Notes: generated by a model not told the origin, from the sequence alone. 39,434 nucleotides of DNA from a virus (IMGVR_UViG_3300037631_003269:1-39434), one strand, 5' to 3'; counted from the first letter of the stretch, positions 1,760-9,931 are shown. Numbers and translations are program-made.

Positions 1760-3484
1760 ATGCAAATAAATACTCAAGAAATAAATGGTTACGCAATTGA
1801 AAGCTTCAACCAATATGATCTTGAAGAAGGAAAGACGCAGGGGATTTGTCCCCTGTGTTCATCTGATAGGAAGTTATCTAAACAAAAATTAAAGTGTGCA
1901 TCGTATGATTGGCAAACCGGGCTTGGTACTTGTCATAACTGCAATACTACATTTCAGTTACACACTTATAAAAGAAAAGGTGATAGCACAAAAGAATTTG
2001 TGCGACCAGTAAATGAAAATATTTCTCCTGTTAAAAACACTAAGGTTGAAGATTGGTTTAAACTGCGTGGTATTAATAAAAATACGTTACAAAATTTAAA
2101 AATATCTGAAGGCCCTGAATGGATGCCACAAACAGGTAAAGAAGAAAATACTATTAAATTTAATTATTTTATTGGTAATGATTTAATTAACATAAAATAT
2201 AGAGATGGTAGAAAAAACTTTAAACTATTTAAAGGAGCCGAAAAAGTATTTTATAATATTAACAGCATTGTTGGGTATAACAGCTGTATTATTGTGGAAG
2301 GCGAGATGGATGTTTTATCTTTTCATGAAGCTGGAATACGAAACGTGGTCTCTGTCCCGAACGGCGCTACAATAAATAATAATAATTTAGATTACTTAGA
2401 TAACTGTATAGATTATTTTGATGATAAAGAAAAAATAATTTTAGCAGTTGATAAAGACGAAGCAGGACAAGCCTTGCAACAAGAATTAATTAGACGTCTT
2501 GGTGCAGAGGTTTGTTTTATTATAGACTTCGATGATTGCAAAGATGCTAATGAATATTTATTAAAATATGGAACTGAAAGATTATCAAAGCTTGTACAAA
2601 AGGCGAAGGCCGTACCGCTCGAAAACGTCACAACGTTCAATGACATTGAGGGAGAAATTACAGATTTTGTTGAAAATGGATTTAAAAAAGGTTATCAAGT
2701 TGGTTTACAAAATTTTGATGAAATATTTTCAACGTATACCGGCCAGTTTATTACTGTTACTGGCATACCTTCTTCTGGTAAGTCTGATTTTGTTGACCAA
2801 ATGGTCGTAGGATATAATCAAAATTATCAATGGAAAACAGCTTTTGCATCACCTGAAAATGCACCAACATTTTTACATGCTCACAAACTAATGCGAAAAG
2901 TGTGGCAAGACATGCCACAAAAGTCCGACATTGGTGGAGCAAAATGGCAATCAATAGCTAAGCATGTTAATGAAAATTTCTTTTTTATAGATATGGAGCG
3001 CTATACTTTAGAATCAGTTTTAAAGAAAGGAGCTGAACTTGTTAAAAGAAAAGGAATTAAATGTTTAGTTATTGATCCATTTAATAAAGTAAGAGACGTA
3101 AATTGCAAGACAGAAGATGTGAATAGGTATACAATGGAATACCTTACTAAGATTGAAATATTTGCTAAAAAATATGATGTATTAGTTATAGTTGTAGCCC
3201 ACCCTACTAAAATGTATAAAGATAAAGATGGCAAAATTGAAGAACCAACTATGTATAATATTAAAGGCGGCGGCGAGTGGTATGATGCATCTTATCATGG
3301 TTTACTCATTCACCGCGATTATGATAATAAAACTGTTAAAGCCAAAGTGCTCAAAGTTAAATTCCAAAACTTAGGCGAAAATGGTGCAGAAGCACATTTT
3401 AGATGGGAATATAAATCAGGTTGTTTTATACCTATATATCCTGAAACAAATCATTTAGAAGAAATGCCATGGGAAGTGGATTAA
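1760..3484 (+). CDS. Primase-helicase, T7 gp4/Twinkle-like
   Basis: Zn finger CPLC..CHNC, TOPRIM IVEGEMD and DKD, Walker A TGIPSSGKS, IDPFN, VAHP. Confidence 0.95.
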   Translation: MQINTQEINGYAIESFNQYDLEEGKTQGICPLCSSDRKLSKQKLKCASYDWQTGLGTCHNCNTTFQLHTYKRKGDSTKEFVRPVNENISPVKNTKVEDWFKLRGINKNTLQNLKISEGPEWMPQTGKEENTIKFNYFIGNDLINIKYRDGRKNFKLFKGAEKVFYNINSIVGYNSCIIVEGEMDVLSFHEAGIRNVVSVPNGATINNNNLDYLDNCIDYFDDKEKIILAVDKDEAGQALQQELIRRLGAEVCFIIDFDDCKDANEYLLKYGTERLSKLVQKAKAVPLENVTTFNDIEGEITDFVENGFKKGYQVGLQNFDEIFSTYTGQFITVTGIPSSGKSDFVDQMVVGYNQNYQWKTAFASPENAPTFLHAHKLMRKVWQDMPQKSDIGGAKWQSIAKHVNENFFFIDMERYTLESVLKKGAELVKRKGIKCLVIDPFNKVRDVNCKTEDVNRYTMEYLTKIEIFAKKYDVLVIVVAHPTKMYKDKDGKIEEPTMYNIKGGGEWYDASYHGLLIHRDYDNKTVKAKVLKVKFQNLGENGAEAHFRWEYKSGCFIPIYPETNHLEEMPWEVD

Positions 3485-3762
3485 AAAAACCTAAAAATTA
3501 TAAAGGGTTAAATAAGTATCATGAAAATTTAAATAATGAGGAACAATTGCATTTTAATTATTGTATTAATAATAATTATCGCATATCTCCTAAACCTGCT
3601 ACAAAGGGATTATTCCCAGATTCTTGGTATGTAGAAGTTAGATTAGGGGCGTATAAAAAAGGTGAGAAGGCACATATTTCACCTATATCTTATGATGATA
3701 AAGGAATATGGCCGGCAATAAAAAAAGCAAGAAAATATTATTATGAAAAACGTACAAAATGA
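3469..3762 (+). CDS. Hypothetical protein (97 aa)
   Basis: Overlaps both neighbours on the operon strand; no recognised motif. Confidence 0.7.
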   Translation: MGSGLKKPKNYKGLNKYHENLNNEEQLHFNYCINNNYRISPKPATKGLFPDSWYVEVRLGAYKKGEKAHISPISYDDKGIWPAIKKARKYYYEKRTK

Positions 3763-4555
3763 ATATAGAAGATTATTATCAGATATACTCTACGAAGGAT
3801 TACCTAAAGAAGATCGAACTAACACAGGAACACAGGCTGTCTTTGGACGAATGCTTACTCATGATATGGCTCATGGATTTCCATTATTAACCGCTAAAAA
3901 AATATATTTTAATCATGCAATTACGGAATTATTATGGATACTACAGGGTCGTACTGACATGTATTACTTACGCCATCACGGCGTTTCTTATTGGGATGAT
4001 AATTATACAAAATCAGGTAGGACTGATAACACTCTTGGCCCTGTTTATGGCAAGCAGCTTCGTAACTTTAATGGTGTTGACCAGCTTAAGTATATTCTCG
4101 AGCAAATTAAACAAGACCCGAGCTCGCGGCGCATTATGGCAAGCTTATGGAATCCCGTTGAATTGGATGATATGGCACTTCCTCCTTGTCATTATGGCTT
4201 TCAAGTATATATAAATAATAATAAATTAAGTTTAGCTTGGTCACAAAGATCAGTAGATGTATTTTTAGGTTTGCCTTATGATTTAGCAATGTATGGCTTA
4301 TTATTACTTATGTTAGCTAAAGGTTCAGGCTATGAGCCAGGAGAACTTATTTGTTTTTTAGGAGATTGCCATTTATATAGTAATCATATTAAACAAGCCA
4401 CACAATATTTAAATAGGGTTGATAGTAAATTGCCTACTGTAGAATTAAAAAAAGGGTTATCTTTAACACACGAGGTTGATATACCTGAGCATGAAGACAT
4501 TACTTTAATAGACTATAATCCTGCAACAGTTATAAAAGCACCTTTAGCAACATAA
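3743..4555 (+). CDS. thyA: ThyA-fold pyrimidine C5-transferase; Asn177->Asp variant, probable dCMP (hydroxy)methyltransferase
   Basis: DRTNTGT, GFPLLT.KK, ELLW, LGPVYG, SRR, MALPPCH (C149), QRSVDVFLGLPYD (D180), DCHLY, IKAPLA. Confidence 0.9.
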   Translation: MKNVQNEYRRLLSDILYEGLPKEDRTNTGTQAVFGRMLTHDMAHGFPLLTAKKIYFNHAITELLWILQGRTDMYYLRHHGVSYWDDNYTKSGRTDNTLGPVYGKQLRNFNGVDQLKYILEQIKQDPSSRRIMASLWNPVELDDMALPPCHYGFQVYINNNKLSLAWSQRSVDVFLGLPYDLAMYGLLLLMLAKGSGYEPGELICFLGDCHLYSNHIKQATQYLNRVDSKLPTVELKKGLSLTHEVDIPEHEDITLIDYNPATVIKAPLAT

Positions 4556-4558
4556 AAT

Positions 4559-5335
4559 ATGTATTTTATTTATCACGTACCGGGTAAAAAAATAGGGGTT
4601 ACACGTAATCTTAATAAGCGTGTAACGGCTGTCCAGGGTTATCAGTTAGATGAATATGAAGTTCTTGATTCTAGTGATGATATAAATTATATATCTGACC
4701 GGGAAATAGAACTTCAAAAGTCTTATGGTTATAAAGTTGACAGACAAAAGTATAAAGATTTATGTAATCAAAAATTAAATAAAATGAAAATAAACGTTAC
4801 CGAACAAACCACAACATTTCCAGTTCCTAAGCTACAGCTTAATAATTGGCTTAGAGATCACTTAGATTTTTCTTGGGAAACTTCACATGGGGAATTTAAA
4901 TTAGATCCTGAAACTATTAATTGGATTTTATTAAACTGCAAAAAATCCATGTACAATGACAAGCGCAGTTATATTTATAACAAAGCTTATTATGAAGCTT
5001 TTTTAAATCCTAAAAACAATCTTACACCTATTGTTGAAACAATTGAAATATTTAACAATATTAGAAGTTGGGCTGAAGAAAGAGGTTTGTATGAAAAAGG
5101 AGATACTAAAACACAGCTAATTAAATTATATGAAGAATCTGGAGAATTATCACAAGCCTTACTTAAAAATAATAAAGAAGATATTATTGATGCTATTGGT
5201 GATAGCGTTGTTGTTCTTACTAATCTTGCCCACCTTGTCGACACCGATATTGAAACTTGTATTCAGTCTGCTTATGATGAAATATCTAGTAGAACTGGTA
5301 GAATGATTAACGGAACATTTGTAAAAGATGAATAA
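4559..5335 (+). CDS. Fusion: GIY-YIG-like N-terminus + unknown domain + MazG-like NTP pyrophosphohydrolase
   Basis: N-terminal YFIY..KIGVT..L..R..E; C-terminal WAEERGL..QLIKLYEESGEL..DAIGD..VVL. Confidence 0.8.
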   Translation: MYFIYHVPGKKIGVTRNLNKRVTAVQGYQLDEYEVLDSSDDINYISDREIELQKSYGYKVDRQKYKDLCNQKLNKMKINVTEQTTTFPVPKLQLNNWLRDHLDFSWETSHGEFKLDPETINWILLNCKKSMYNDKRSYIYNKAYYEAFLNPKNNLTPIVETIEIFNNIRSWAEERGLYEKGDTKTQLIKLYEESGELSQALLKNNKEDIIDAIGDSVVVLTNLAHLVDTDIETCIQSAYDEISSRTGRMINGTFVKDE

Positions 5336-5588
5336 GAAAGAAATAAAATTTAGAGATCCAGTAGTAGAGCGAGTAGTAGATAAATTTGTAGATAGATCCG
5401 ATGTAGGCTTTGAAAAATATAAAATAACACTTGATAAAGATCCATCTGATATGTTTATTTGGATGAATCACTTGCAAGAAGAATTAATGGATGCTGTATT
5501 ATATCTTCAAAAGCTTAAAGAAAACACCACTGAAGAACTTCAAGAAGTAATGTTAAAAAATATAAATAAAACATTTGGTGATGATTAA
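5328..5588 (+). CDS. Small all-alpha NTP-PPase-like protein
   Basis: R...G..KY..TL and HLQEELMDAVLY (EExxD) motifs. Confidence 0.55.
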   Translation: MNKKEIKFRDPVVERVVDKFVDRSDVGFEKYKITLDKDPSDMFIWMNHLQEELMDAVLYLQKLKENTTEELQEVMLKNINKTFGDD

Positions 5589-6039
5589 ACGACGACCATA
5601 TAAAAAAAGAAAACGTGGTCCAGTTGTTTCTAAAAAAGTATCGTATGATGGCATTAACTTTGCGTCAGGCTTAGAAAGATATATGTATATGGCTTTAAAA
5701 AAAGCTAAGATACGATCAAAATACGAAGGTGAAACTTTTGTTTTATTAAACGGTTTTCATTTTGAAAACGAAGTATATGAAAGACAATCAAATGGAAAGG
5801 GCGATTATAAAAATAGGGGATGCAAAAGAATATTACCTATTAAATATACACCAGATTTTATAGGAGATACTTTTATAATTGAAACAAAGGGTAGAGCTAA
5901 TGAATCATTTCCAATGCGCTGGAAGCTATTTAAGCAACTTGTAATGAATCAATTCCCAAACTATACACTATACAAACCACAGAATCAAAAAGAATGCGAC
6001 AGAACAGTAGAGTTGATCCTCGAGAAGCAAAAAAAATAG
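5575..6039 (+). CDS. T7 endonuclease I-like Holliday junction resolvase
   Basis: FASGLE, YE, YTPDFI, IIETKGR; start may be 5581. Confidence 0.8.
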   Translation: MVMIKRRPYKKRKRGPVVSKKVSYDGINFASGLERYMYMALKKAKIRSKYEGETFVLLNGFHFENEVYERQSNGKGDYKNRGCKRILPIKYTPDFIGDTFIIETKGRANESFPMRWKLFKQLVMNQFPNYTLYKPQNQKECDRTVELILEKQKK

Positions 6040-6427: not shown

Positions 6428-7396
6428 ATGGGACTATTTGATTTAAGAGTAGCATATAAACCTTTTGATTATCCAGAATATTATACTGAGGGTTGGTTAA
6501 AACAGGCACAAGCTTTTTGGTTACATACAGAAATACCTATGTCTGGTGACGTAAAGGATTGGAATGAAAAATTAACTAAAGAAGAAAAAAATTTAGTAGG
6601 CAATATACTGTTGGGCTTTGCACAAACCGAGTGCGCTGTATCCGATTATTGGACACAAAAAGTTGTGGCTTGGTTTCCTAAACATGAAATACAACAAATG
6701 GCTATGATGTTTGGTAGCCAAGAAACAATTCACGCTGTTGCTTACAGTTATTTAAATGAAACATTAGGACTTGAAAATTTTGAAGCATTTTTACAAGATG
6801 ACGCAACTATGGAAAGGTTTGATAACCTCGTTGCTTATGAAGGATCTGAAAAAATTGGTATCGCAAAATCCTTGGCTATCTTTTCTGCTTTTGCTGAAGG
6901 AGTTAGTTTATATTCTGCTTTTGCTGTATTATATTCTTTTCAATTAAGAAATTTACTAAAAGGTATTGGGCAGCAAATGAAGTGGTCAGTACGAGATGAA
7001 TCTTTACATAGTAAGATGGGTTGTCAACTGTTTAGACATATGTGCGAAGAAGATCCTAAACTATTAAATAAATGTAAAACAGAAGTGCTTGATGCGGCCA
7101 AAACTATATTGCATGCAGAAGAAAAATATATTGATAAAATGTTCGAGCTTGGAGACATTGAAAATCTTAAAGCCTACGACCTCAAGCAATTTATTAGAAA
7201 ACGACTTAACGAAAAGCTGCATGAGCTTGGGTACGCAAACAGTGGGCTCAACTTTGAGTTTAACAAAAAAGCAGCAAGTAATCTCGATTGGTTTTACCAT
7301 CTTACCGGTGGGCATACTCATACTGATTTTTTTGCTGTTCGTCCAACAGATTATTCAAAAGCAAACGAAGGAGAAGATTTTGAAGATATATGGTAA
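6428..7396 (+). CDS. nrdB: Class I ribonucleotide reductase beta subunit
   Basis: YKPF.YP, FW...E, ETIHAVAYS (ExxH and radical Tyr), AEGVSLYSAF, RDESLH, DFF..RPTDYSK. Confidence 0.95.
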   Translation: MGLFDLRVAYKPFDYPEYYTEGWLKQAQAFWLHTEIPMSGDVKDWNEKLTKEEKNLVGNILLGFAQTECAVSDYWTQKVVAWFPKHEIQQMAMMFGSQETIHAVAYSYLNETLGLENFEAFLQDDATMERFDNLVAYEGSEKIGIAKSLAIFSAFAEGVSLYSAFAVLYSFQLRNLLKGIGQQMKWSVRDESLHSKMGCQLFRHMCEEDPKLLNKCKTEVLDAAKTILHAEEKYIDKMFELGDIENLKAYDLKQFIRKRLNEKLHELGYANSGLNFEFNKKAASNLDWFYHLTGGHTHTDFFAVRPTDYSKANEGEDFEDIW

Positions 7397-7644
7397 AGCT
7401 AAAAGCATTAGTAAAAGAAAGAAAGTTAACACCTTTAGAAAGGCTATCTAATAGGCTGGGCTATATGGGGGCGGGATTTATAATGATTTCGCCATATTTA
7501 TTACCTGATGCTATTGGTGCTGTAACTTATGTAGCTGGCGGTATATTATCTTTGCCGCAAGTTTTTGTAGCAAAACAATGGAATTTAGTAGTGGTTAATT
7601 TAAATGTAACATTTGGTTATTTAATTTATTTATATAATGCTTAA
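7390..7644 (+). CDS. Small 3-TM membrane protein with PQ motif
   Basis: Three hydrophobic segments; LSLPQVFVAK. Confidence 0.65.
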   Translation: MVKLKALVKERKLTPLERLSNRLGYMGAGFIMISPYLLPDAIGAVTYVAGGILSLPQVFVAKQWNLVVVNLNVTFGYLIYLYNA

Positions 7645-7981
7645 ATTTCAATGTTCTTCATGTGGGGCCTGTTGCGCAACGGCAGGATCTGACGGTAGAA
7701 TGCCTAATAGGGGAGATGGAGCATGCGCACATTTAACTAATGAAAATTTATGTGCTATATTTGATGATAGGCCTGATATATGTAGAGCGGATTATATGCA
7801 CAAACAAATCCAAAAAACATACCCTCATGTAGATAAATACGAGTATTATGTAAAAGCCACAAAAGTATGTCATATGCTTATAGATTTATATGAATTAGAT
7901 GAATCTTATAAAATACCAATATCTGTTTATAATGAACAATTAGAAAAAATACAACAAACTATTATAAATAAAATGAAATGA
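7637..7981 (+). CDS. YkgJ-family (CxxCxxCC) Fe-S/Zn cysteine-cluster protein
   Basis: CSSCGACC, CAHL, NLCAIF..RPDICR. Confidence 0.85.
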   Translation: MLKFQCSSCGACCATAGSDGRMPNRGDGACAHLTNENLCAIFDDRPDICRADYMHKQIQKTYPHVDKYEYYVKATKVCHMLIDLYELDESYKIPISVYNEQLEKIQQTIINKMK

Positions 7982-8199
7982 AAGAAAGTAAATTAGTAGA
8001 CATGCATAGAAGCGTTGAAGCTCTTAAGCGTGTTACGCAACAGGTATTAAATGAAGTATCACACCTTAGAGAATTGGGTATTGGTACATTAGAGCTAGTT
8101 AAACTTATGGATGGATATGATGAAGCTTTAGAAAAATTACAAACTAAAGTTACAACTAAACCTGAAGAAGAAAAAAAATTAGACTTAGATGTGGAATAG
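7978..8199 (+). CDS. Hypothetical helical protein (73 aa)
   Basis: ATGA overlap with upstream gene; overlaps nrdA start. Confidence 0.7.
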   Translation: MKESKLVDMHRSVEALKRVTQQVLNEVSHLRELGIGTLELVKLMDGYDEALEKLQTKVTTKPEEEKKLDLDVE

Positions 8200-9931
8200 C
8201 GATTGGAAAAAAGGTGAAGACTATCCTGTTTGGGGTGATACAGATGTTTATAAAAAAACTATTACCGGTGGCTATTTAATTAATGGCGAATCACCTAAGG
8301 ATGCATATGAGCGAGTTGCTAAAACTGTAGCAAAGCGTTTATACAAGCCAGAACTGGCCGAAAAGTTTTTTGATTACATATGGAAAGGCTGGCTGTGTTT
8401 AGCTTCGCCTGTGCTATCTAATACAGGCTCAGATCGTGGATTGCCTATTAGTTGCTTCGGTATTGATGTAGCAGACAGTGTACATGATATTGGTACTAAA
8501 AATTTAGAAATGATGTTACTAGCAAAACACGGTGGGGGTGTTGGTATCGGAATTAATATGATTCGTCCCGCCGGAGCTAGAATAACAAACAATGGAACAA
8601 GTGATGGAGTGGTGCCGTTTTGCAAGATATACGATTCAACAATACTTGCCACTAATCAAGGATCTGTCAGAAGAGGAGCTGCTTCAGTTAATATCAATAT
8701 TGAACATCCCGACTTTGATGAATGGGTTGAGATCAGAGAACCTAAAGGGGATATCAATAGACAATCCCTCAACCTCCACCAGTGTGCTGTGGTCGGCGAC
8801 AAGTTTATGCGAAGACTTGAAGCGGGAAATATGGAAGCGCGAGGCAAATGGTCTAAGCTCCTCCAAAAGCGCAAAGCTACTGGAGAACCTTATATCCTTT
8901 TTAAAGGAAACACAAACAAAAATAATCCAACAGCATACAAAAAGAACAGTCTAAAAGTACATATGACTAACATTTGTAGCGAAATAGTATTGCATACAGA
9001 TGAAAGCCATAGTTTTGTTTGTTGTTTATCTTCAGTTAACTTAGATAAATATGATGAATGGAAGAATACCAATCTGATATACGACGCCACATGGTTCCTG
9101 GACGGTGTGCTAGAAGAATTTATCCAGAAGGCAAAGAATATGAAGGGATTCGAGAACTCTGTACGCAGTGCGGAAAAAGGGAGGGCTCTTGGGCTTGGTG
9201 TCCTTGGGTGGCACAGCCTGTTACAGAAAAACGGAATTGGTTTCGAAAGTTTATTAGCGCAATTCAAAACGCGAGAAATTTTTTCAAAAATAAAAATTGA
9301 AACTGAAAGAGCATCAAGAGCATTAGCTGAAACATACGGTGAACCTTTGTGGTGCGTAGGTACTGGATTTAGGAATACTCACCTTAGAGCTATTGCGCCT
9401 ACGGTATCTAATAGTAAATTAGCAGGTAATGTATCGCCGGGAATTGAACCTTGGGCTGCTAATGTATTTACAGAGCAATCTGCAAAAGGTACATTTATAC
9501 GTAAAAATAAAGAACTTAAAAAAGTATTAAGAAAAGTTGGAATCGACACTAAAGAAACTTGGGATAAAATTTTGGAAGATGGTGGATCCGTTCAAGGAAT
9601 TAAACAACTTGACGGATGGTATTACGATCACGGAGGAAGACTTAACCAAGAAGAAGGAGAATCAGTAAAAAATGTATTTAAAACATTTAAGGAAATAAAT
9701 CAATTAGAATTGATTAGACAAGCAGGAATAAGACAAGACTATATAGATCAGTCTGTAAGCTTAAATCTTGCGTTTCCGTCGGAAGCAACGCCAAGATGGC
9801 TGAATACCGTGCATTTTGAAGCTTGGAAACAAGGGGTGAAGACTTTATATTATACTAGGACAGAATCTGTATTAAGAGGTGATATAGCTGCGGCGGCTAT
9901 GGATCCTGATTGTTTAAGTTGTGACGGTTAA
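8189..9931 (+). CDS. nrdA: Class I ribonucleotide reductase alpha subunit (no ATP cone)
   Basis: ASPVLSN, ISCF, GGGVG, RRGA, GEPY, TNICSEI, CCLSS, APTVSNS, IDQSVSLN, KTLYY, terminal CLSC. Confidence 0.95.
   Translation: MWNSDWKKGEDYPVWGDTDVYKKTITGGYLINGESPKDAYERVAKTVAKRLYKPELAEKFFDYIWKGWLCLASPVLSNTGSDRGLPISCFGIDVADSVHDIGTKNLEMMLLAKHGGGVGIGINMIRPAGARITNNGTSDGVVPFCKIYDSTILATNQGSVRRGAASVNINIEHPDFDEWVEIREPKGDINRQSLNLHQCAVVGDKFMRRLEAGNMEARGKWSKLLQKRKATGEPYILFKGNTNKNNPTAYKKNSLKVHMTNICSEIVLHTDESHSFVCCLSSVNLDKYDEWKNTNLIYDATWFLDGVLEEFIQKAKNMKGFENSVRSAEKGRALGLGVLGWHSLLQKNGIGFESLLAQFKTREIFSKIKIETERASRALAETYGEPLWCVGTGFRNTHLRAIAPTVSNSKLAGNVSPGIEPWAANVFTEQSAKGTFIRKNKELKKVLRKVGIDTKETWDKILEDGGSVQGIKQLDGWYYDHGGRLNQEEGESVKNVFKTFKEINQLELIRQAGIRQDYIDQSVSLNLAFPSEATPRWLNTVHFEAWKQGVKTLYYTRTESVLRGDIAAAAMDPDCLSCDG

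What the first reader, a model, noticed from the sequence alone, without database searches (positions are those of the whole stretch)
3743..5588. Compact T4-analogous cytosine-replacement module
Seen: the Asp-type ThyA is followed with 3-nt spacing by a GIY-YIG-like/MazG fusion, which overlaps a second EExxD all-alpha NTP-PPase-like gene, all between primase-helicase and endonuclease I/RNR. Established: T4 couples dCMP hydroxymethylase with a dCTPase and the GIY-YIG endonuclease II that cuts unmodified-C DNA. Inference: MazG removes dCTP and supplies dCMP, ThyA* modifies it, and the nuclease discriminates host DNA. This would be an independently assembled anti-restriction system in a small podovirus-like Bacteroidota phage. 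No dNMP kinase or DNA polymerase is visible in this window.
Basis: inference. Interest (0 to 1): 0.85.

Follow-up and report, generated by a model that had tools for sequence, protein, structure and literature searches.

The report
Swappable cytosine-modifying phage gene pair
An uncultured marine phage has a thymidylate-synthase look-alike predicted to methylate dCMP, followed by a fused predicted nuclease-pyrophosphatase that likely clears ordinary dCTP; putting modified cytosine into phage DNA is a known trick, but relatives keep the fusion while swapping the first enzyme between predicted methyl and hydroxymethyl versions.

Summary
The anatomy is confirmed: ThyA with Asp at the Asn177 site, a 3-nt gap, a GIY-YIG/unknown/MazG fusion, and an 8-nt overlap with an 86-aa EExxD gene. 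Published residue codes predict 5-methyl-dCMP, not T4-type hydroxymethyl-dCMP. All 197 distinct fusion loci with a ThyA in view have an Asp-type enzyme, from four clades. A shorter clade nearest MilA and T4 gp42 trades places with this one at least 6-7 times on an NrdB tree. In a second phage lineage that clade has an extra upstream gene at 8 of 8 loci (4 clear beta-glucosyltransferases), against 0 of 11 for methylase types. This supports cytosine modification as the job of the slot. MazG as dCTPase and GIY-YIG as an EndoII-like discriminator are untested. The 86-aa gene is dispensable and not shown to be a pyrophosphatase. No dNMP kinase, deaminase or PolA was found in 36-38 relatives. Restriction-site avoidance is relaxed in this lineage but not in the second. 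Xp12-type modules are published, and this scan reported the reading many times on other genomes. Verdict: new variant of a known kind.

The parts
3743..4555 (+). ThyA-family enzyme with Asp at the Asn177 site (Asp180, codon 4280-4282), catalytic Cys149, Leu146 (=L143), His150 (=H147), Asp172 (=D169); predicted dCMP C5-methyltransferase ('type A')
   Evidence: residue code from passages of PMC13326640 and PMC8670742
4559..4747 (+). N-terminal minimal GIY-YIG domain of the fusion (residues 1-63; FIY...KIG, Arg21, Glu49); predicted nuclease
   Evidence: a KIG variant is active in Hpy188I
4784..5008 (+). Middle domain of the fusion (about residues 76-150), conserved (T84, T86, F87, S130, Y140), no fold or family match; candidate DNA-binding or base-reading module
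5039..5335 (+). C-terminal MazG-type all-alpha NTP pyrophosphatase domain (E192, E193, E196, D211, D215); inferred dCTPase
5328..5588 (+). 86-aa helical protein with QEELMDA motif; accessory, function unassigned, not a fixed part of the module
1760..3484 (+). Context: primase-helicase
3469..3762 (+). Context: conserved 97-aa unknown gene overlapping the ThyA start by 20 nt
5575..6039 (+). Context: DUF1064 / PD-(D/E)XK nuclease (resolvase-like), also present in relatives without the module
6428..7396 (+). Context: ribonucleotide reductase small subunit
8189..9931 (+). Context: ribonucleotide reductase large subunit

Best explanation
The Asp-type ThyA is predicted to methylate dCMP to 5-methyl-dCMP, and the MazG domain of the next protein likely hydrolyses dCTP to dCMP, so that 5-methylcytosine would enter phage DNA in place of much or all of its cytosine, as a shield against host restriction. 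The GIY-YIG head probably cuts DNA; the likeliest target is unmodified host DNA, which would also release dCMP. The ThyA and the fusion are the core pair, and the ThyA slot is exchangeable between methylase and hydroxymethylase clades. Shown: sequences, motifs, gene order, linkage and swapping. Inferred from published residue rules: the ThyA product (about 0.8). Inferred from context only: dCTPase (about 0.55) and discrimination of unmodified DNA (about 0.35). Host kinases and host polymerase would have to finish the pathway (untested).
For: Asp177, Leu143 and Asp169 with an intact catalytic set. 5 of 7 virome N177D ThyAs made 5mdC when tested (bioRxiv 2024.12.05.627091, passages). 197 of 197 fusion loci have an Asp-type ThyA, in four clades. 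Among 80 loci found with the fusion alone: 40 type B, 37 type A, 2 type C, 1 at a contig edge. Type B hits MilA (E=2e-16) and T4 dCMP hydroxymethylase (E=1.5e-11) ahead of any true ThyA and is 33% identical to the enzyme of Enterococcus phage VPE25, whose DNA has modified cytosine. Types A and B need 13-14 changes on a 100-row NrdB tree, 6-7 forced by starred branches. In lineage 2 an extra upstream gene follows type B, 8 of 8 versus 0 of 11; 4 of the 8 are clear beta-glucosyltransferases. Xp12 and an autographivirus also place an NTP-PPase gene beside an Asp-type ThyA. Nuclease and MazG acidic residues are invariant in 214-215 of 215 full-length fusions. No C-containing 4-base palindrome is purged in 80 loci of this lineage, against 6 of 10 Asn-type loci and 4 of 5 related phages without the module.
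Against: No dNMP kinase (PF21448: 0 of 38 and 0 of 5 genomes; no credible P-loop outside the helicase in 10 complete genomes), no dCMP deaminase (0 of 36), no PolA (0 of 36). The published in vivo assay supplied T4 gp1 kinase. Type A keeps His147, the second position that differs between modified and unmodified contigs, whereas Xp12 has Pro and types B-D have Thr or Tyr/Phe; type A is sister to Asn-type phage ThyAs (support 93). Lineage 2 carries the pair yet purges sites: CATG O/E 0.01 in 8 methylase-type loci, and GATC 5/56, 21/60 and 3/71 in three genomes. MazG domains of this family occur in about 1,100 phage records from unrelated hosts, none covering the fusion. The same GIY subfamily also occurs fused to NUMOD domains, as in homing endonucleases. 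Fold matches for the GIY domain are weak (best Z 5.6).
Confidence: 0.58

Rival explanations
1. Cytosine is modified only in part. The ThyA makes 5-methyl-dCMP that competes with dCMP, the MazG domain is a general pool sanitiser or alarmone hydrolase, and the GIY-YIG domain is a domesticated homing or repair nuclease, perhaps one that helps exchange the neighbouring thy allele.
For: No kinase or polymerase. Lineage 2 still purges restriction sites. The best fold match is I-TevI, which targets thymidylate synthase genes (recalled). Relatives of the GIY domain carry NUMOD domains. The thy slot directly upstream is swapped repeatedly.
Against: The fusion is single-copy, fixed in place in two phage lineages, lacks NUMOD modules, and its catalytic residues are invariant, unlike a mobile endonuclease. 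It was never seen with an Asn-type ThyA. Site avoidance is relaxed in this window's own lineage.
Confidence: 0.27
2. Type A still works as a dTMP synthase, or a dual enzyme, and the cluster only supplies dNTPs next to the ribonucleotide reductase.
For: It is the only ThyA in each of 36 genomes, keeps His147, is about 45% identical to ordinary ThyAs and is sister to Asn-type phage enzymes. There is no deaminase to route 5-methyl-dCTP to dTTP.
Against: Asn177Asp switches the preference to dCMP (as cited). The slot is filled interchangeably by an enzyme nearest to dCMP/CMP hydroxymethylases, which brings a glucosyltransferase in lineage 2. That would not replace a dTMP synthase.
Confidence: 0.1
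3. The 86-aa EExxD protein is a second, essential pyrophosphatase and is the real dCTPase.
For: Invariant R23, K30, Y31, Q50, E51, E52, D55; 8-nt overlap with the fusion; one weak phage hit annotated 'ntP-ppase' (33%, E=2e-3).
Against: Absent from 22 of 181 assessable fusion loci; present in Elemovirus, mumin-type Flavobacterium phages and Pseudomonas phages 73 and NP1, and the 45 kb of an Elemovirus searched has no ThyA match. No profile match to the MazG alignment (hhalign probability 0.5%), to the PDB or to a named Atlas family.
Confidence: 0.05

Closest known systems
Xanthomonas phage Xp12 5-methylcytosine module (ThyA-family dCMP methyltransferase QNN97214, PRA-PH/HAD gene, dCMP deaminase, dihydrofolate reductase, PolA; MT664984)
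   Same: Asp at the 177 site in the same GLPYD motif, an all-alpha NTP-PPase gene next door, same predicted product.
   Different: Only 29% identical; Xp12 has Pro at position 147; this module has no deaminase, DHFR or polymerase, and its PPase carries a GIY-YIG domain.
Phage T4 set: gp42 dCMP hydroxymethylase, gp56 dCTPase, gp1 dNMP kinase, GIY-YIG endonuclease II, beta-glucosyltransferase
   Same: Same logic of a C5-modifying ThyA homolog, a pyrophosphatase and a GIY-YIG nuclease; EndoII is among the top fold matches (Z 3.9); sister loci carry gp42-like and BGT-like genes.
   Different: The window enzyme has Leu143 (methylase code); nuclease and PPase are one polypeptide; no gp1-type kinase, own polymerase or glucosyltransferase was found in this lineage. 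The roles of gp56, gp1 and EndoII are recalled; for EndoII only the start of one abstract was seen.
MetaGPA virome modules: N177D ThyA with PRA-PH and dCMP deaminase (PMC8670742; bioRxiv 2024.12.05.627091); uvMED autographivirus AP013540
   Same: N177D ThyA beside an all-alpha NTP-PPase. AP013540 holds the nearest relative of type D (54% identical) between a PPase, a P-loop kinase and a deaminase.
   Different: Those clusters include the kinase and/or deaminase that this pair lacks; 'GIY' and 'MazG' do not occur in the eLife text.
CMoRE (PD-T4-3) and Hpy188I GIY-YIG nucleases
   Same: CMoRE joins an N-terminal GIY-YIG domain to a modification-sensing domain (Z 4.3). Hpy188I is active with KIG in place of YIG.
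   Different: Both are bacterial restriction enzymes; CMoRE cuts modified DNA, the opposite of what is proposed here; no likeness of the middle domain to its sensor was seen.

Membership tests
dCMP C5-methyltransferase (Xp12 type) | ThyA fold with catalytic Cys and intact folate/phosphate residues | tested here: met
   PF00303 E=1.7e-85; R21, E58, C146, R166, S167, H207, Y209 equivalents present
dCMP C5-methyltransferase (Xp12 type) | Asp at the Asn177 position | tested here: met
   Asp180; 119 of 120 homologs
dCMP C5-methyltransferase (Xp12 type) | Hydrophobic residue at 143 and Asp at 169 (methyl rather than hydroxymethyl or hydroxyl product) | tested here: met
   Leu146 and Asp172; code from PMC13326640 passages
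dCMP C5-methyltransferase (Xp12 type) | Change at His147, the second position that marks modified contigs | tested here: not met
   His150 kept in 119 of 120; Xp12 has Pro. The paper gives it as a correlate, not a requirement
dCMP C5-methyltransferase (Xp12 type) | Measured 5-methyl-dCMP formation and 5mC in virion DNA | not testable with these tools
   needs an enzyme assay or base analysis
Xp12-type 5mC gene cluster | dCMP/5mdCTP deaminase and phage nucleotide kinase | tested here: not met
   PF00383 0 of 36; PF21448 0 of 38; no kinase P-loop in 10 complete genomes. A non-P-loop kinase is not excluded
T4 dCMP hydroxymethylase (gp42) | Acidic residue at position 143 with Asp177 | tested here: not met
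   the window enzyme has Leu; the type B relatives meet it (D/T/D in 75 loci)
T4 cytosine-replacement system | Own dNMP kinase, DNA polymerase and glucosyltransferase | tested here: not met
   lineage-2 glucosyltransferase queries hit none of the 10 complete genomes. PolB was not searched by profile
GIY-YIG nuclease superfamily | Beta-hairpin, Arg helix, Glu helix fold | tested here: met
   top four VIA matches are I-TevI (Z 5.6, rmsd 3.2, 61 aligned), UvrC, CMoRE and T4 EndoII; BFVD and Atlas neighbours are GIY-YIG/T5orf172. Z values are low
GIY-YIG nuclease superfamily | Conserved GIY Tyr, YIG Tyr/Lys and Gly, Arg, metal-binding Glu | tested here: met
   Y5, K11, G13 in 214 of 215; R21, E49 in 215 of 215. 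Residue equivalence assigned from motif and secondary structure
T4 endonuclease II | Cuts cytosine DNA and spares modified DNA | not testable with these tools
   needs a cleavage assay
MazG-like all-alpha NTP pyrophosphatases (fusion C-domain) | Four-helix fold and acidic metal-binding motif | tested here: met
   VIA Z 10.2 to 1vmg (rmsd 2.5, 83 aligned; middling for a helical domain); PHROG E=1.5e-34; acidic residues in 215 of 215
dCTPase (gp56 / DCTPP1 function) | Preference for dCTP over 5-methyl-dCTP and other NTPs | not testable with these tools
   fold matches are tied among MazG, MazZ, PRA-PH and DCTPP1
All-alpha NTP pyrophosphatases (86-aa gene) | Profile or structural likeness to MazG/PRA-PH/dUTPase | tested here: inconclusive
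   EExxD conserved, but no profile match; no model was built

The most novel reading that the evidence does not exclude
One 258-aa protein does the work of both T4 gp56 and T4 endonuclease II, with an undescribed middle domain that reads the C5 state of cytosine. With a plug-in dCMP-modifying enzyme it forms a two-gene cytosine-replacement chassis that runs on host kinases and host polymerase, and abundant marine Bacteroidota phages use it to flip between 5mC, bare 5hmC and glucosylated 5hmC genomes by swapping one gene.
Probability: 0.25. Interest if true: 0.8.

Novelty: new variant of a known kind. Interest (0 to 1): 0.52.

Why it matters
If right, a large uncultured family of marine flavobacterial podoviruses, and a second small-genome lineage, carry non-canonical cytosine. 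About 1,200 stored IMG/VR stretches match the fusion patterns (estimate). The fusion would be a compact dCTPase plus a C-selective nuclease, useful for building 5mC-substituted DNA or for telling C from 5mC. The repeated methyl/hydroxymethyl swap is a natural experiment on escape from modification-dependent restriction. The ThyA chemistry itself is known, which caps the interest.

Tried and rejected
1) No cultured phage has a close type A ThyA (best 45%) or the fusion (no record covers 80% of it), so no base analysis could be borrowed. 2) Idea that the 6-base sites still avoided are those whose enzymes cut C5-modified DNA. Pooled over 11 genomes, GATATC was 62/187, GAATTC 61/157 and GGTACC 62/148; EcoRV cuts T4gt and KpnI cuts Xp12 (PMC7653180 supplement). 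The test was post hoc, p ranged 0.027-0.38, and controls are equally low for these sites, so it is not used as support. 3) Foldseek against the PDB gave nothing at E<=0.001 for either model; the middle domain had no clear match (best Z 3.4). 4) phrog_7922 was found in 0 of 38 genomes, but the control did not ring either. 5) In one search the aligner mis-set column 143 for type B, and regular expressions mis-read some rows; these were re-read from ungapped motifs. 6) A terminase-seeded sample gave mostly short contigs; only 4 of 19 virus records reached the primase region, all with type B plus fusion. 7) Promoter and terminator scans were at chance level. 8) Public contigs cover the region in three DNA runs and in 25 of 30 bins of one RNA run; contigs cannot show transcription or modification. 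9) An oligomer prediction for the 86-aa protein did not run, so its assembly is open. 10) The MilA paper gave nothing on His147. 11) The careful NrdB tree did not finish; the quick tree was used.

Full report
Observation. The three ORFs lie at the stated coordinates, with the 3-nt gap and an 8-nt overlap. The window is the whole G000 record. Its terminase and putative capsid genes match only Flavobacteriia podoviruses (Elemovirus, Maribacter phage Panino, Cellulophaga and Tenacibaculum phages) and one spring-water virus. Relatives are 55-77 kb, so the window is probably a partial genome. Public runs that hold the DNA are marine or estuarine.

The ThyA. It is a full-length PF00303 protein, at best 45% identical to ThyAs of cultured phages, with Asp180 where PDB enzymes have Asn. 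Of the 120 listed homologs, 119 have Asp there, 119 have Leu143, Cys146 and His147, and all have Asp169. Passages of PMC13326640 give the code: N177D means dCMP, L143D/E goes with hydroxymethylation, D169N with hydroxylation. The prediction is therefore 5-methyl-dCMP. In the mSCD preprint, 5 of 7 such virome enzymes made 5mdC when co-expressed with T4 gp1. One caution: position 147 is the other top marker of modified contigs, and this clade keeps His. Xp12's enzyme is 29% identical and has Pro there. On a 45-row quick tree type A is sister to Asn-type phage ThyAs (support 93), which suggests a separate Asn-to-Asp origin.

The fusion. Models show three domains. Residues 161-258 match MazG-family structures without favouring one substrate class. 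For residues 1-63 the top four matches among 48,161 chains are all GIY-YIG domains, although Z is only 3.9-5.6; the viral library and the Atlas agree. Y5, K11, G13, R21, E49 and the MazG acidic residues are kept in 214-215 of 215 full-length copies, and KIG for YIG is compatible with activity (Hpy188I). The middle domain has no match. Stand-alone relatives of the GIY domain carry NUMOD domains, so descent from a homing endonuclease is plausible.

Co-occurrence. Gene order is fixed across loci. Of 80 loci found with the fusion alone, 79 showed a ThyA and all were Asp-type: 40 short type B, 37 type A, 2 type C (duplicates not removed). Of 80 found with ThyA, all 69 Asp-type had the fusion and none of 11 Asn-type did. 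Over all 306 fusion loci, 200 were distinct; 197 had a ThyA in the fetched stretch and all 197 were Asp-type (93 Leu/His, 75 Asp/Thr, 21 Leu/Tyr, 8 with LPCC); 3 had no upstream sequence. Part of this set was seeded with type A, and kin are not independent. Type B is nearest to MilA and T4 gp42 in the PDB, and to enzymes of Bacteroides phage BF503P (46%) and Enterococcus phage VPE25 (33%); VPE25 DNA has modified cytosine (PMC4999554 passages). On a 100-row NrdB quick tree, A and B need 13-14 changes, 6-7 forced by starred branches; recombination between thy and nrdB could add to that count.

A second lineage. Distant fusions led to phages of about 30 kb with a different terminase. The order there is DUF6378, optional gene(s), ThyA, fusion. 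Among 19 distinct loci with DUF6378, all 8 type B loci have an extra 300-360 aa gene and none of 11 methylase-type loci do (four of the eight supplied the queries, and two of the eleven have a primase-helicase hit). Four match the PHROG beta-glucosyltransferase family at E about 1e-15 to 1e-17, one of them also T4 BGT in the PDB (E=2.4e-7). One has a weak Pfam T4-Gluco-transf hit, another shares its PHROG family, and two are unannotated. A glucosyltransferase is useful only with a hydroxymethyl handle, so this is the best indirect evidence that the slot modifies cytosine destined for DNA.

The 86-aa gene. Its EExxD is conserved, but nothing ties it to a PPase family. It is missing from 22 of 181 assessable loci and occurs in 136-154 phage records of other groups. 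I treat it as accessory.

What is missing. Each of 36 module genomes has one ThyA (a second hit in G026 is an identical repeat at the contig ends). There is no dCMP deaminase or PolA in 36, no PF21448 kinase in 38 plus 5, and no credible P-loop other than the helicase in 10 complete genomes. The Pfam scan of 58 chosen proteins from these genomes and loci found no polymerase or kinase. By contrast, the nearest database relative of type D sits in a cluster with PPase, kinase and deaminase. The pathway must then borrow host kinases, or replacement is partial.

Restriction-site test. In 11 genomes of this lineage the lowest observed/expected ratio among C-containing 4-base palindromes is 0.45-0.77, while 4 of 5 related phages without the module have at least one at 0.00 (three controls were 45-50 kb parts). 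At locus level 0 of 80 purge a site versus 6 of 10 Asn-type loci. Against this, lineage 2 purges CATG, GATC or CTAG despite carrying the pair. Host differences, a prophage stage or partial modification could explain either pattern, so the test supports the reading only for the window's lineage.

Mechanism. Most likely: dCTP is hydrolysed to dCMP by the MazG domain; dCMP is methylated by the ThyA; host enzymes phosphorylate and incorporate the product; the GIY-YIG heads, brought together by MazG oligomerisation, cut unmodified DNA. The first link rests on context, the second on published residue rules, the third and fourth on inference. MazG oligomerisation and the T4 gene roles are recalled; T4 EndoII binding as a tetramer was seen only in a search listing.

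Prior knowledge. N177D ThyA beside PRA-PH-type PPases is in print and in Xp12. Searches for this fusion or this phage group found no describing paper: searches returned none, one search returned seven with no such module evident from the listing, and one search returned one archaeal-virus preprint (listing only); the library lacks most subscription papers. What I saw: passages of the mSCD preprint (its supplements are closed, and its tested ThyA sequences might include this clade), PMC13326640, PMC4999554, PMC3045582, PMC5175136 and PMC12923530; passages and section 11 of PMC8670742; abstract, passages and supplement tables of PMC7653180. This scan has reported the Asp-ThyA reading, the type B reading and the fusion reading on other genomes. 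I saw those notes after reaching the same reading, and they are not independent evidence. The glucosyltransferase split in lineage 2, the swap count and the palindrome tests did not appear in the lines shown.

Verdict. A real, conserved module; a new variant of nucleotide-level cytosine modification; interest 0.52. The most novel open parts are the nuclease-PPase fusion with its unknown middle domain and the missing kinase.

Noticed in passing
window 3915-4214 (+), 7089-7451 (+), 8592-8954 (+): Long stop-free +1 frames inside ThyA (107 codons, p=0.003 against synonymous shuffles), NrdB (109) and NrdA (122; both 0 of 1000 shuffles). The ThyA one is at least 95 codons in 50 of 79 type A homologs but 26-65 in 13 Asn-type genes. 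No convincing Pfam match. Overlapping genes or a codon-context bias.
   Followed up: partly
L306:1279-4565, L363:2589-5330: Upstream of type B ThyA: a BGT-like gene, a 303-aa unknown and a PLP-dependent (PALP) enzyme; a possible undescribed hypermodification of 5hmC.
   Followed up: partly
L305:3803-4894, L345:3891-4925: 344-363 aa proteins (phrog_14998, unknown function) occupy the glucosyltransferase position beside type B ThyA; candidate new DNA glycosyltransferases.
   Followed up: partly
L319:4966-5235 and 18 other loci: DUF6378 lies upstream of the Asp-type ThyA throughout lineage 2, directly or across the glucosyltransferase gene(s); possibly another nucleotide-handling protein.
   Followed up: partly
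G003, G006, G008, G010, G011, G024, G026, G027, G032, G033: Complete 61-72 kb genomes with primase-helicase, class Ia RNR, GroEL/GroES and a sigma-like factor but no PolA.
   Followed up: partly
L061:6017-8592, L124:12549-14982: Variable islands after NrdA with JmjC and cupin, GT29-like, radical SAM, short-chain dehydrogenase and cytidylyltransferase genes.
   Followed up: no
L341:3742-5610, L455:4821-6689: Some relatives carry a single 622-aa ribonucleotide reductase (weak B12-type insertion-domain hit) in place of NrdA/NrdB.
   Followed up: no
L474:2100-2906 and 4980-5660 (Bacteroides phage BF503P2): A cultured gut phage with two Asp-type ThyA-family genes and a dUTPase; a practical model for testing type B chemistry.
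   Followed up: partly
window 7637-7981: Sporadic CxxCxxCC zinc/iron-chelating protein inserted between NrdB and NrdA; a contig in run X9 skips it.
   Followed up: no
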